UHGV virus genome: UHGV-0285855
Strand: one strand, 5' to 3'
Length of the DNA: 18,234 nt
DNA from: a virus
Shown in pieces: positions 3,316-5,980 of this stretch (within the stretch, counting starts at the first letter, position 1; each line of letters opens with the position of its first letter). A program made the position numbers and the translations under genes. The notes beneath the pieces were generated by a model. The model saw only the letters and a program-made list of their open reading frames with translations. It was not told the origin of the DNA and did no database searches.

Positions 3316-3795
3316 ATGAGCACACGCAAGAAAAAAACAGCGGTTTCTGACGAGACCGTGATGGAGGCTATCCGGGATGCACTTGAAGACGGCGATCCCC
3401 GCACCGCCGGGCTGGCTGAACAGCTGGCGAACGGCTATGTGGATCTGCTCGACGGTCTGCCATTCGGGGAATCCCGTGAATACCGCGTCACCTTCCGCGA
3501 ACTGACGGCGAAAGACAGCATTGACGCGGAAACCGAGGCCGAGCGTCTTATGGAAACCCGAAATGGCGGCCCGGTTCTGATAGCCTCACCGGCACTGCGC
3601 GGCATTGCACTGCTGCGCCGCCAGATTGCTGCTGTCGGCCAGATTGAAGGGCCATTGTCTCCGCGTCAGATTGGACAGCTCAGCGAGCGCGATCTCTCCC
3701 GTCTGATGGCGGCGGTAAGCCTGCTTGATTCCGCGATGGCCGGAAAGCTGGTCGCTGAACGGGGGCGACCAGATGCAGTGCCGGGATCAGATTGA
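3316..3795 (+). CDS. Mu gp41-like protein, probable tail assembly chaperone
   Basis: 159-aa ORF in the tube-to-tape-measure interval, where tail assembly chaperones are encoded. Confidence 0.5.
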   Translation: MSTRKKKTAVSDETVMEAIRDALEDGDPRTAGLAEQLANGYVDLLDGLPFGESREYRVTFRELTAKDSIDAETEAERLMETRNGGPVLIASPALRGIALLRRQIAAVGQIEGPLSPRQIGQLSERDLSRLMAAVSLLDSAMAGKLVAERGRPDAVPGSD

Positions 3796-3919
3796 AGAAG
3801 CGGCAATTGTGCTGGGGATGGTGACAAAAAGCGGCCCGGAGTGGGCGCTTAACCTCCCCTTATCGCAGCTTTACCGGCACTGCCGACAGACCGAAAAAAT
3901 TCTCAGAACGAAGCAGTAA
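3772..3919 (+). CDS. Small ORF in the +1 frame overlapping the end of gp41-like; possible frameshift extension or independent 48-aa protein
   Basis: ATG at 3772 preceded by a GGGGG run at 3761-3765; the open frame runs to TAA 3917-3919, 3 nt before the tape-measure ATG at 3923. Confidence 0.3.
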
Positions 3920-3922
3920 CCC

Positions 3923-5980
3923 ATGGCAAAAAACCTGAAAGCCTCCCTGATTGTCGATTTACTCGGCAATATTTCTGCCAAATCCCGCCAGTGGTCACAG
4001 GAGCTGGGGGCGTTCTCCCGTTCCGGCAGGACGGGGCTGGGTGGTCTTGGAAATGCAGCCCGTCGTGCCGGTCAGGAGACAGAACTAGTCGGCTCCCGTA
4101 TGCAGCGAACGCTTGCCGGTGTTCGTGGCAGCATCCGCACGGTAACGTCAGATTTTGACCGCCTGCAGGGCAGCATTACCGGCACCATCGGGCGGATAAG
4201 CAACCTTTACGGGATGCTGGCGGGAGGGGCTGCGGTCTACGGTTTTAATAAAGCCTTTATCCGCCCGGCCGCAGAGATGGAAGATCATATTCTTCGCCTT
4301 AATGCTCTGAACAAAGGTGATACGGCAAAAACAGAAGAAATTCGTAAGTGGGCAGAGCAAAACGCCAAAGACACCACATGGGGATTGTCTGGTGTTATGC
4401 AGGAGTATGCTTCAAGCCGTGGTTTTGGGATGACCGATGCACAGGCACGAAGTTATATCACCATGCTTGAGGATCAGGGGGCACTTCAGCGATGGTCTCT
4501 TGACCGTGCTCAGGGTGCTTCCATGCAACTGAAGCAGATGTTTGCCCGTCAGAGTATCCAGGCGGAAGATGCAAATATTCTTACGGATTACGGGATCAAC
4601 GTTTACCAGTTGCTGGCTGATAAGCTGGGGGTTAACCAGAAAACGCTTCGTGATCTGGGAAGCAAGGGAAAACTGGGGCCGGACAGCATTCGCCTGTTAT
4701 TTCAGGTGATGGCCGAACAGGCAAAAGGTGCCCAGAAAAACGCCATGAACTCATGGACGGGAATGACGTCCATGATGGGCGATGTCTGGGACGGATTTGC
4801 CCGCGAGGTGATGGCAAAGGGACCGTTTGACAGCCTGAAAAAGAGCCTGAAAGGCTTTCTGGATTATGCTGATGCGGCACAGAAAAGCGGCTTACAGGAT
4901 AAGCTGACCACACAGACGGCCTCAGCCCTGAATCAGGGATTTGAGTATGCCAGAGACGCTGCGACCGGCTTTTACCGGGTCATTCAGAAAGTCAGGGAAA
5001 CGCTTCAGGCACTGCGCGACGCTGGTTATGGCGATGCGCTGGATCGCATTGGTCAGGGGGCGCAGACCGCCGCGAAGTACCTGATGTATATGTATCTCGC
5101 CTCCCGCGCGCTGAAGGTGCTCAGGTTTGCGGGGACGGGGGCATTACGTCTCGGTGCAACTCCCTTACGCTATGGTATGGCGATGACCTCCGTGCTGACG
5201 TCGCCCTTCCGCAAACCGCAGACCACTGTGCCGGGAACGCAGCCCGGACGCGCTGGCCGCTTCCTGAATTTCCTTACCGGGGTAAATCCTGCTGCCGTTC
5301 AGCCCGTGCTGGTCACCAACTGGCCTGCGGGTGGCATGGCCTCAGGTGGCGGGGATGTGGTGGTCAGCGGTGACGGCAAAACCGTGCGAGGCCGTAAAAA
5401 ACGCGGCCCCGGACGCGGGCGGGGTGTCACGACCGTCGTGACCGCCGGTGAGCAGCTGGCGGAGAGCGCCGGTAAACAGGGCTTCTTCGGTCGTATGATG
5501 AGCCGTGCCGGTGGTCTGCTAACGGCTGCCGGAAACCGCATGGGGCTGGGGCGTTTTGCCGGGCTGTTCCGTGGTGCCGGTCGGCTGGGTGGTGGTGCCC
5601 TGTGGGCCGGTGCCATGGCGGCTCCTGTACTGCTGGACAGCAGCGCCAGCGCAGCCGATAAAGCCGGTGCCGTGGGTTCCCTTGCCGGAAGTATCGCCGG
5701 TGGCGCGCTGGGGGCTGCTGCCGGTCCGGTCGGGGTTGCCATTGGTTCCACGGTGGGCAGCTATCTCGGTGATTATCTGGGGGGCTGGCTGACGCAGGCC
5801 TGGCAGAAACTGCGTGGCAGCAGTGACGAAAACGGCGGACAGGCCACCGCGAAAACCGCCGCACGGGTGGAGCTTGTGGCCCCTGAAGGCTGGCGGGCGC
5901 GCAGTATTGATGTGGATGATACCGCACAGCATGGCCTGGATGTGAACGTCTGGAACGGAGGGAACTATGGCCTCTACTGA
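3923..5980 (+). CDS. Tail tape measure protein
   Basis: 685-aa ORF, largest in the tail cluster; helical N-terminal two thirds and Gly/Ala-rich C-terminal region; located after the tube and chaperone genes. Confidence 0.8.
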   Translation: MAKNLKASLIVDLLGNISAKSRQWSQELGAFSRSGRTGLGGLGNAARRAGQETELVGSRMQRTLAGVRGSIRTVTSDFDRLQGSITGTIGRISNLYGMLAGGAAVYGFNKAFIRPAAEMEDHILRLNALNKGDTAKTEEIRKWAEQNAKDTTWGLSGVMQEYASSRGFGMTDAQARSYITMLEDQGALQRWSLDRAQGASMQLKQMFARQSIQAEDANILTDYGINVYQLLADKLGVNQKTLRDLGSKGKLGPDSIRLLFQVMAEQAKGAQKNAMNSWTGMTSMMGDVWDGFAREVMAKGPFDSLKKSLKGFLDYADAAQKSGLQDKLTTQTASALNQGFEYARDAATGFYRVIQKVRETLQALRDAGYGDALDRIGQGAQTAAKYLMYMYLASRALKVLRFAGTGALRLGATPLRYGMAMTSVLTSPFRKPQTTVPGTQPGRAGRFLNFLTGVNPAAVQPVLVTNWPAGGMASGGGDVVVSGDGKTVRGRKKRGPGRGRGVTTVVTAGEQLAESAGKQGFFGRMMSRAGGLLTAAGNRMGLGRFAGLFRGAGRLGGGALWAGAMAAPVLLDSSASAADKAGAVGSLAGSIAGGALGAAAGPVGVAIGSTVGSYLGDYLGGWLTQAWQKLRGSSDENGGQATAKTAARVELVAPEGWRARSIDVDDTAQHGLDVNVWNGGNYGLY

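What the first reader, a model, noticed from the sequence alone, without database searches (positions are those of the whole stretch)
3725..3925. Overlapping +1-frame ORF between the chaperone-like gene and the tape measure gene: possible programmed frameshift
The tube-to-tape-measure interval is where tailed phages encode a chaperone and its frameshift-extended form. Here an open +1 frame overlaps the last ~70 nt of the gp41-like gene and ends 3 nt before the tape-measure ATG at 3923, for which I see no convincing ribosome-binding motif. In the overlap the zero-frame codons GGG-CGA (3763-3768; CGA is a rare Arg codon) sit in a GGGGG run, where a +1 slip of peptidyl-tRNA-Gly onto GGC is conceivable. 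The alternative is independent initiation at ATG 3772, giving a 48-aa protein. The frame is +1, not the usual -1, so this is speculative.
Basis: inference. Interest (0 to 1): 0.45.

Follow-up and report, generated by a model that had tools for sequence, protein, structure and literature searches.

The report
Known Mu-type -2 frameshift site
The overlapping reading frame is real and is this prophage's copy of the known programmed -2 ribosomal frameshift of phage Mu, which makes a longer form of the tail assembly chaperone, so it is an ordinary feature that genome annotation has missed here.

Summary
A second reading frame overlaps the 3' end of the gp41-like tail chaperone gene (3316-3795) and stops at 3919, 3 nt before the tape measure ATG at 3923. 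The run GG GGG CGA lies at 3761-3768.

The window carries a Mu-like myophage tail module. The octamer is identical, in the same codon register, to the phage Mu site, which GenBank annotates as a verified -2 translational frameshift (Xu et al. 2004). The shifted-frame peptide is homologous to the Mu extension.

Across 36 non-redundant relatives (34-100% chaperone identity), GGGGCGA is the only invariant block. The shifted frame stays open for 46-58 codons and ends at the tape measure start.

The +1 mechanism and the ...ERG/DQMQ junction are probably wrong. The homologous Mu event is -2, which adds one residue and gives a predicted 201-aa fusion, join(3316..3768,3767..3919).

The ATG alternative (really 3773, not 3772) has a good Shine-Dalgarno-like run, but it is absent from Mu and from close relatives.

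I found no conserved stimulatory RNA structure. Novelty is low: this is a known mechanism whose product is unannotated in this lineage.

The parts
1446..2927 (+). Tail sheath gene (context)
   Evidence: Pfam Phage_sheath_1 2e-33; phrog_165 5.5e-197
2936..3301 (+). Tail tube gene (context, upstream neighbour)
   Evidence: Pfam Tail_tube PF10618 5e-30; phrog_185
3316..3795 (+). gp41-like tail assembly chaperone, the zero-frame short product (159 aa)
   Evidence: Pfam Gp41_Mu PF23746 1.2e-32 (112.6 bits, cut-off 27); phrog_508 'tail assembly chaperone' 2.7e-44; 48% identical to Mu gp41
3761..3768 (+). Slippery octamer GG GGG CGA. Zero-frame codons are GGG (3763-3765, P site) and CGA (3766-3768, A site).
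   Evidence: Identical sequence and register to Mu (L001 1559-1566). GGGGCGA is invariant in 36/36 aligned non-redundant relatives and is the only contiguous invariant block. The Mu site is annotated as a verified -2 frameshift.
3767..3919 (+). Frameshift extension: 50 codons in the -2/+1 frame plus TAA
   Evidence: phrog_12783 1.4e-37. Homologous to the Mu extension. Open for 46-58 codons in all relatives. Variable columns by codon position 1/2/3 are 13/7/29 in this frame.
3316..3919 (+). Predicted fusion CDS join(3316..3768,3767..3919), 201 aa. This is the FS-gp41 equivalent, with junction ...LVAERGR|DQMQCR...
   Evidence: Constructed. Aligns collinearly through the junction with Mu UIW09302.1 (49% identity over 168 aa, E 1e-55). 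The exact sequence is absent from the 15-billion-protein collection, so it is unannotated.
3773..3775 (+). Non-conserved in-frame ATG in the extension frame, a possible start of a free 48-aa peptide. The G run 7 nt upstream is SD-like.
   Evidence: Anti-SD duplex -8.6 kcal/mol. PGAP annotates the 48-aa ORF as a hypothetical protein in some E. coli genomes. There is no start codon here in Mu or in the 83-89% identical relatives L032, L006, L008 and L044.
3923..5980 (+). Tape measure protein gene (downstream neighbour). It starts 3 nt after the extension stop and has no SD.
   Evidence: Pfam TMP_3 2e-19; phrog_973 2.3e-192; TIGR02675. SD duplex -1.4 kcal/mol.

Best explanation
The interval holds the programmed ribosomal frameshift of a Mu-like prophage's tail assembly chaperone gene.

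Most ribosomes read gp41 (3316-3795) to its TGA and make the 159-aa chaperone. A small fraction slip at GG GGG CGA, when GGG (3763-3765) is in the P site and CGA (3766-3768) is in the A site. They move back two bases: tRNA-Gly re-pairs perfectly with GGG at 3761-3763, and tRNA-Arg(ICG) re-pairs at two of three positions with GGC at 3764-3766. Translation then continues with GAC at 3767 for 50 more codons to TAA at 3917-3919.

The result is a 201-aa fusion, gp41(1-151) plus extension. By analogy with lambda gpG/gpGT, the shared N-terminal part is thought to coat the tape measure protein, and the rare C-terminal extension is thought to recruit the tube protein. The fixed low ratio of long to short form would then be what tail assembly needs.

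Shown here: gene order, homology of both parts to Mu, identity of the slip site, and its conservation. Taken from Mu literature and annotation: the -2 direction and the existence of the product. Inferred by analogy: the roles of the two domains.
For: - Gene order is sheath, tube, gp41-like gene, extension, tape measure.
- gp41 matches PF23746 at 1.2e-32. The extension matches phrog_12783 at 1.4e-37.
- Mu carries the same GAA CGG GGG CGA in the same register 24 nt before its gp41 stop. GenBank AF083977.1 annotates Mu_56 as a 'verified -2 translational frameshift in PMID 15469818'.
- Literature: tandem -2 slippage on GG GGG CGA with A-site tRNA-Arg(ICG) (PMC3458567); efficiency of about 2.2% (PMC3498833); -2 adds one amino acid relative to +1 (PMC5009743); a Mu 10-mer alone gave 14% shifting in a PURE system (bioRxiv 10.1101/2025.10.02.679949).
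- The predicted fusion aligns without a gap across the junction to Mu FS-gp41.
- In 52 non-redundant variants from 101 loci, 49 keep in-frame GGG CGA. The shifted frame is open for 46-58 codons and ends -23 to +14 nt from the tape measure start.
- GGGGCGA accounts for 7 of the 9 invariant columns in a 125-column alignment with 64% mean identity.
- Codon bias at the site: CGA 36/36 against 4.9% of Arg codons elsewhere in these genes; GGG 36/36 against 17.6% of Gly codons; the preceding codon ends in G 36/36 against 33.6%.
- The extension frame shows third-position-biased variation, 13/7/29.
Against: - There is no protein-level evidence for this prophage. The -2 direction is transferred from Mu.
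- Sequence alone cannot rigorously separate -2 from +1, because both reach the same frame.
- This lineage has an ATG at 3773 with a strong SD-like G run, so some extension peptide could also be made independently.
- No conserved stimulatory RNA structure was found.
- Databases disagree on the Mu junction residue, Arg or Gly, so the tandem-slip detail is not settled by what I could read. I could not read Xu et al. 2004 itself.
Confidence: 0.85

Rival explanations
1. This is a +1 ribosomal frameshift. Peptidyl-tRNA-Gly slips from GGG (3763-3765) to GGC (3764-3766) while the A site waits for the rare CGA codon, giving a 200-aa fusion ...AERG|DQMQ...
For: It reaches the same frame as -2, so everything about the extension fits equally well. 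CGA is invariant and rare (4.9% of Arg codons in these genes), as expected for a 'hungry' A-site codon. Reporter assays cannot separate -2 from +1.
Against: The identical homologous site in Mu is annotated and reviewed as a verified -2 event that adds one amino acid. The base 5' of GGG is G in 36/36 relatives across four codon identities, and all 28 Arg codons there are CGG against a 9.8% baseline. That constraint is irrelevant to a forward slip. GGC is also a poor re-pairing target for a GGG-reading tRNA-Gly at the wobble position (inference).
Confidence: 0.07
2. There is no recoding. The overlapping frame is a separate small gene translated from ATG 3773 into a free 48-aa protein, as PGAP and the D108 '41.5' annotation imply.
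For: ATG 3773 lies 7 nt after the G run, which is SD-like (-8.6 kcal/mol, stronger than most real gene starts in the window). The 48-aa ORF is annotated as a hypothetical protein on 116 contigs. A start codon at extension codon 2 or 3 recurs in 17 of 36 variants.
Against: Mu, L062, L063, L054 and L044 have no ATG, GTG or TTG anywhere near the start of the frame; in Mu the first is at codon 27. The closest divergent relatives (L032, L006, L008, L044; 83-89% identity) have GCG in place of the ATG. Independent initiation would not explain the invariant in-register GGG CGA or the CGG bias. In Mu the fusion is the verified product.
Confidence: 0.05
3. This is transcriptional slippage. RNA polymerase drops one G in the G5 run, giving an mRNA in which gp41 and the extension are in frame.
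For: Natural 4-G versions (L012, L079, L013; P0113 and P0114) show that a 1-nt deletion gives exactly such an in-frame fusion.
Against: Five G is short for polymerase slippage (general knowledge). It would not need the invariant CGA. It would give the 200-aa product, whereas Mu is reported to add a residue. A 10-mer of the site shifted frame in a reconstituted translation system, although that system also transcribes.
Confidence: 0.02
4. The open frame is a chance ORF with no function.
For: The octamer occurs once, with 0.97 expected. A 50-codon open stretch is not rare in G+C-rich DNA.
Against: The peptide is conserved down to 34% chaperone identity, matches a PHROG family at 1.4e-37, and varies mainly at third codon positions.
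Confidence: 0.01

Closest known systems
Phage Mu gp41 / FS-gp41 (Mup41 / Mu_56; UniProt P0DJY4; GenBank UIW09302.1), programmed -2 frameshift (Xu, Hendrix & Duda 2004, PMID 15469818)
   Same: Same gene family (PF23746) and same position between the tube and tape measure genes. Identical slippery octamer GG GGG CGA in the same register. The ~50-aa extension is homologous and ends at the tape measure start. The fusion aligns collinearly at 49% identity.
   Different: The chaperone is only 48-49% identical and has a 15-residue longer N-terminus. The slip site lies 30 nt before the stop rather than 24. The extension frame has an ATG at codon 3 that Mu lacks. The tape measure ATG lacks the AGGA ribosome-binding site annotated in Mu. 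The fusion is not annotated for this lineage.
Phage lambda gpG / gpGT (-1 frameshift at G GGA AAG)
   Same: Same logic: a chaperone gene just upstream of the tape measure gene, a low-frequency shift near its 3' end, and a long form whose ORF ends at the tape measure start. This is the presumed functional model.
   Different: There is no detectable sequence homology. Lambda is a siphovirus. Its shift is -1 on an X XXY YYZ heptamer. Here the -1 frame closes after 18 codons and no such heptamer exists.
Phage P2 gpE / gpE+E' (-1 frameshift; Phage_TAC_7, PF10109)
   Same: A myovirus tail chaperone pair in the same slot. gp41 gives a weak, sub-threshold match to PF10109 (8.3e-5, 23 bits against a cut-off of 25).
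   Different: Different shift direction and site. Homology is marginal.
+1 frameshift sites (E. coli prfB; tail chaperone genes of some Listeria and Bacillus phages)
   Same: Same target frame. A slow or rare A-site codon lies next to a P-site codon that can re-pair.
   Different: Those sites shift forward and typically use a stop codon and/or a closely spaced 5' SD. Here the 5' G constraint and the Mu data indicate a backward two-base slip.

Membership tests
Mu-type gp41/FS-gp41 tail assembly chaperone with programmed -2 frameshift | The gene lies between the tail tube and tape measure genes of a contractile-tail phage | tested here: met
   Sheath 1446-2927, tube 2936-3301, gp41-like 3316-3795, tape measure 3923-5980
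Mu-type gp41/FS-gp41 tail assembly chaperone with programmed -2 frameshift | The zero-frame product is homologous to Mu gp41 | tested here: met
   PF23746 Gp41_Mu 112.6 bits (cut-off 27); tblastn to Mu 48% identity, E 1e-25
Mu-type gp41/FS-gp41 tail assembly chaperone with programmed -2 frameshift | [quoted passage not shown] | tested here: met
   3761-3768, 30 nt before the stop. Identical to Mu L001 1559-1566.
Mu-type gp41/FS-gp41 tail assembly chaperone with programmed -2 frameshift | A -2/+1 frame extension of ~50 codons, homologous to the Mu extension and ending at the tape measure start | tested here: met
   50 codons, phrog_12783 1.4e-37, stop 3 nt before ATG 3923, collinear with UIW09302.1
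Mu-type gp41/FS-gp41 tail assembly chaperone with programmed -2 frameshift | Site and extension are conserved across relatives beyond what the protein sequence requires | tested here: met
   49/52 variants keep the site. CGA 36/36, GGG 36/36 and a 5' G 36/36, against baselines of 4.9%, 17.6% and 33.6%.
Mu-type gp41/FS-gp41 tail assembly chaperone with programmed -2 frameshift | A fusion protein is actually produced by a -2 shift, with one extra residue at the junction | not testable with these tools
   Known only for Mu, from the GenBank note and reviews. The primary paper is not held.
Mu-type gp41/FS-gp41 tail assembly chaperone with programmed -2 frameshift | Both the short and long forms are required for tail assembly | not testable with these tools
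   Inferred from lambda G/GT work summarised in PMC5009743
Canonical -1 tail chaperone frameshift (lambda G/GT type) | An X XXY YYZ heptamer with the extension in the -1 frame | tested here: not met
   There is no such heptamer at 3755-3775. The -1 frame stops after 18 codons, and the conserved peptide is in the -2/+1 frame.
Canonical -1 tail chaperone frameshift (lambda G/GT type) | A 3' stimulatory stem-loop or pseudoknot | tested here: not met
   RNAalifold consensus -0.59 and -1.14 kcal/mol with no covarying pairs. Single-sequence z-scores -0.83 (window) and -0.15 (Mu). No Rfam hit.
+1 frameshift (prfB-like) | Forward P-site slip with a slow A-site codon, and no constraint 5' of the P-site codon | tested here: inconclusive
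   The rare CGA codon is present and invariant. The invariant 5' G and exclusive CGG use argue for a backward slip. The direction cannot be proved from sequence.

The most novel reading that the evidence does not exclude
In this E. coli/Salmonella clade of Mu-like prophages the tape measure ATG has no Shine-Dalgarno sequence. The duplex energy is -2.2 to +0.7 kcal/mol in 11 variants, weaker than the window background. The ATG sits 3-13 nt after the stop of the extension ORF.

Tape measure synthesis could therefore depend on termination-reinitiation by ribosomes that have read the extension frame. These would be the frameshifted ribosomes, plus any that start at ATG 3773 in this phage. The slip site would then set the tape measure dose and tie it to the amount of long chaperone, as well as setting the chaperone ratio.
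Probability: 0.1. Interest if true: 0.5.

Novelty: already known. Interest (0 to 1): 0.15.

Why it matters
The main value is for annotation.

- The 201-aa frameshift product is missing from the databases for this prophage lineage. The extension is either unannotated or called a 48-aa hypothetical protein. It can now be annotated as join(3316..3768,3767..3919).
- The comparison shows that the Mu -2 site G GGG CGA is conserved from Enterobacteriaceae to Vibrio, Oceanospirillaceae and Magnetospirillum prophages, with no conserved 3' stimulator. This supports the view that the short slippery sequence is sufficient.
- It does not open a new biological question.

Tried and rejected
- Conserved downstream stimulatory RNA structure. 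RNAalifold on 36 sequences (site -12 to +110) and on the 21 enterobacterial sequences (site +3 to +67) gave -0.59 and -1.14 kcal/mol with no compensatory pairs. Single-sequence folds of the window and of Mu were no better than shuffles. Rejected.
- Rfam scan of 3300-4100 at E<=1: no hits.
- PDB sequence search with the fusion: no hit at E<=1.
- NCBIfam: no model matches the fusion.
- Reading Xu et al. 2004 directly: the paper is not held. I relied on the GenBank note and on citing papers.
- Full-text search for the octamer returned only unrelated primer and sequence hits.
- Correlation between an extension-frame start codon and a missing tape measure SD. It fails within the window's own clade: L032, L006, L008 and L044 lack both. 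I did not claim coupling to a free small ORF.
- Structure prediction of the fusion was not run. It would not decide any of the questions, and the junction sequence is not a direct translation of the window.
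Full report
**Observation.**
- The 159-aa ORF at 3316-3795 ends ...GCT GAA CGG GGG CGA CCA GAT GCA GTG CCG GGA TCA GAT TGA. GGG is at 3763-3765, CGA at 3766-3768, and the G5 run at 3761-3765.
- The +1 (equivalently -2) frame is open from 3719. It is listed mechanically as 3725-3919 from a TTG start.
- It overlaps the ORF by 71 nt and ends with TAA at 3917-3919, three bases before the ATG at 3923 of a 685-aa ORF.
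- The in-frame ATG is at 3773-3775, not 3772. The 48-aa length is correct.
The best anti-SD duplex is -1.4 kcal/mol, below the window-wide median of -3.0 and far weaker than most neighbouring starts.
- Taken alone, the octamer (1 found, 0.97 expected) and a 50-codon open frame are not beyond chance.

**What the region is.** The window carries a Mu-like myophage tail module. It contains Mu gp36 and gp37, sheath, tube, a gp41-like protein, tape measure, gp43 (DNA_circ_N), baseplate gp44-48, fibre genes and a Gin-like invertase.
- The 159-aa protein matches Pfam Gp41_Mu (1.2e-32) and PHROG 508 'tail assembly chaperone'.
- The shifted-frame peptide has its own PHROG family, phrog_12783 (1.4e-37).
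- The exact 159-aa protein occurs in E. coli records. The DNA is 98.6% identical to E. coli prophages and is present in 37 of 5426 complete E. coli genomes.

**The link to Mu.** tblastn finds Mu, D108 and SfMu gp41 at 47-49% identity.
- The current Mu GenBank record carries two CDS at this position: Mu_41, and a two-piece join, Mu_56. Mu_56 is annotated 'verified -2 translational frameshift in PMID 15469818; tail assembly chaperone frameshift product'.
- The Mu sequence at the shift is CAA GAA CGG GGG CGA GTG. This is the same GAA CGG GGG CGA in the same register as the window.
- Papers that cite the primary work describe tandem -2 slippage on GG GGG CGA, with the A-site tRNA-Arg (anticodon ICG) re-pairing better in the -2 frame than in the -1 frame (PMC3458567).
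- They report an efficiency of about 2.2% (PMC3498833) and one additional amino acid compared with a +1 shift (PMC5009743).
- A 2025 preprint reports that a 10-mer of the Mu site alone gave 14% shifting in a reconstituted system.
- I could not read Xu et al. 2004 itself.

**Predicted product.** Applying the Mu join to the window gives join(3316..3768,3767..3919). This is 201 aa with the junction ...LVAERGR|DQMQCRDQIEE....
- It aligns without a gap through the junction to Mu UIW09302.1 (49% identity over 168 aa, E 1e-55).
- Neither this sequence nor the 200-aa +1 version is present among about 15 billion database proteins.
- The 48-aa ATG-started ORF is annotated as 'hypothetical protein' on 116 contigs.
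- PGAP annotations of E. coli relatives never show the join.

**Comparative test.** I collected 101 loci: annotated records, 14 species genomes and 79 IMG/VR contigs.
- Among 52 non-redundant variants, with chaperone identity to the window of 34-100%, 49 keep in-frame GGG CGA. The hosts include Vibrio, Oceanospirillaceae, Brenneria, Serratia and Magnetospirillum.
- From the site, the shifted frame is open for 46-58 codons. It stops between -23 and +14 nt of the tape measure start.
- In a 125-column alignment of 36 representatives (mean identity 64%) there are only nine invariant columns. Seven of them are the contiguous GGGGCGA.
- Codon usage makes the same point. CGA is 36/36 at the site but 4.9% of other Arg codons in these genes. 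GGG is 36/36 against 17.6% of Gly codons.
- The codon before GGG is CGG (28), AAG (6), TCG (1) or GGG (1). It always ends in G, against a 33.6% third-position baseline. Every Arg at that position is CGG, against 9.8% elsewhere.
- Downstream of the overlap, variable columns fall 13/7/29 on codon positions 1/2/3 of the shifted frame. This is the signature of a translated, selected peptide.

**Direction of the shift.** Both -2 and +1 reach the same frame, so sequence cannot prove either.
- The invariant G 5' of the P-site codon and the exclusive use of CGG are needed only for a backward slip (GGG re-pairing with xGG).
- Together with the Mu annotation and reviews, this makes -2 the better reading.
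- The junction residue is not settled by what I could read. GenBank UIW09302.1 has ...ERGR|EW... (Arg retained, tandem slip), while UniProt P0DJY4 has ...ERGG|EW... (Gly-Gly, P-site-only slip).

**Stimulators.** I found no conserved RNA structure 3' of the site.
- Consensus folds gave -0.59 and -1.14 kcal/mol with no compensatory changes.
- Single-sequence z-scores were -0.83 (window) and -0.15 (Mu).
- There was no Rfam hit.
- This agrees with the report that the short Mu sequence alone is active.

**The alternative of independent initiation.** In this phage, ATG 3773 lies 7 nt after the G run, which is a good SD mimic (-8.6 kcal/mol). A free 48-aa peptide cannot be excluded as a by-product.
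- The start codon is not conserved. Mu has no ATG, GTG or TTG in the frame until codon 27.
- L044, L054, L062 and L063 have no start codon near the beginning of the frame.
- The window's own 83-89% identical relatives have GCG in place of the ATG.
- Independent initiation also would not explain the in-register invariant octamer.

**Mechanism and function.** The domain roles are inferred from the lambda G/GT model summarised in PMC5009743.
- The abundant short form and the N-terminal part of the long form are thought to bind the tape measure protein.
- The rare C-terminal extension is thought to recruit the tube subunit. A fixed low ratio of the two forms would be needed for correct tails.
- In the Mu virion cryo-EM study, the gp41 structure could not be resolved.

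**Verdict.** A programmed frameshift is supported, but it is the already known Mu-type -2 event, not a new +1 one. Novelty is limited to a missing annotation in this prophage lineage. The most novel reading still open is that the SD-less tape measure gene of this clade is translated by reinitiation of ribosomes leaving the extension frame. I give this about 10%.

Noticed in passing
L001 1559-1567 (phage Mu); proteins P0121 and P0122: Databases disagree on the junction residue of the Mu frameshift product. GenBank UIW09302.1 reads ...QERGR|EWLRC (Arg kept). UniProt P0DJY4 reads ...QERGG|EWLRC (Gly-Gly). These imply different slip mechanisms: tandem or P-site only.
   Followed up: partly
L012 and L079 (Kluyvera genomosp. 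3 CP022114.1) about 2340-2540; L013 (Erwinia tracheiphila ICMP 5845) about 2340-2500; proteins P0113, P0114, P0127: Some relatives have only four G at the slip site (CGGGGCGAG). This 1-nt deletion fuses chaperone and extension in frame (...RGEWL...), so only the long form would be made. They could be real mutants of decaying prophages or homopolymer assembly errors.
   Followed up: no
window 3900-3925; also L006, L008, L032, L044-L053 at the tape measure start: The tape measure ATG has no Shine-Dalgarno sequence in the whole E. coli/Salmonella clade (duplex -2.2 to +0.7 kcal/mol). It follows the extension stop by 3-13 nt. Mu and more distant relatives do have AGGA-type sites. Translational coupling to the extension frame is possible.
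   Followed up: partly
window 3761-3775; same position in 17 of 36 relatives: The slippery G run doubles as an SD-like element (-8.6 kcal/mol) 7 nt upstream of an ATG, TTG or GTG at extension codon 2 or 3. The start codon recurs in several divergent clades but is missing in Mu and in close relatives of the window.
   Followed up: partly
L045-L053, L009 (Salmonella/Citrobacter/Serratia clade), about 12 nt 5' of the slip site: This clade has the weaker site AAG GGG CGA, where the P-site tRNA would re-pair with AGG. It also has an AGGTGA Shine-Dalgarno-like hexamer ending 4 nt before the GGG codon. Such close spacing is known to favour forward shifts at prfB, so the direction or efficiency might differ in this clade.
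   Followed up: no
window 11049-13600: The region looks like a G-segment-type invertible tail-fibre region. It has a fibre ORF at 11049-11984 (+), a tail-fibre assembly gene (Caudo_TAP) on the opposite strand at 12016-12537, and a Gin/Hin-type serine invertase (Resolvase + HTH_7) at 13028-13600.
   Followed up: no
window 13686-15734: A 682-aa protein with a SASA carbohydrate acetylesterase domain and a C-terminal DUF6645 lies just past the invertase. It may be a cargo or host-surface-modifying gene at the prophage end.
   Followed up: no
window 3838-3852; L001 1643-1657: A local hairpin, GGCCCGGAGUGGGCG (GGCCC-GGAAU-GGGCC in Mu), lies about 75 nt 3' of the slip site. It coincides with the conserved peptide SGPEWAL, is absent in distant relatives, and is too far away to be a typical stimulator.
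   Followed up: partly
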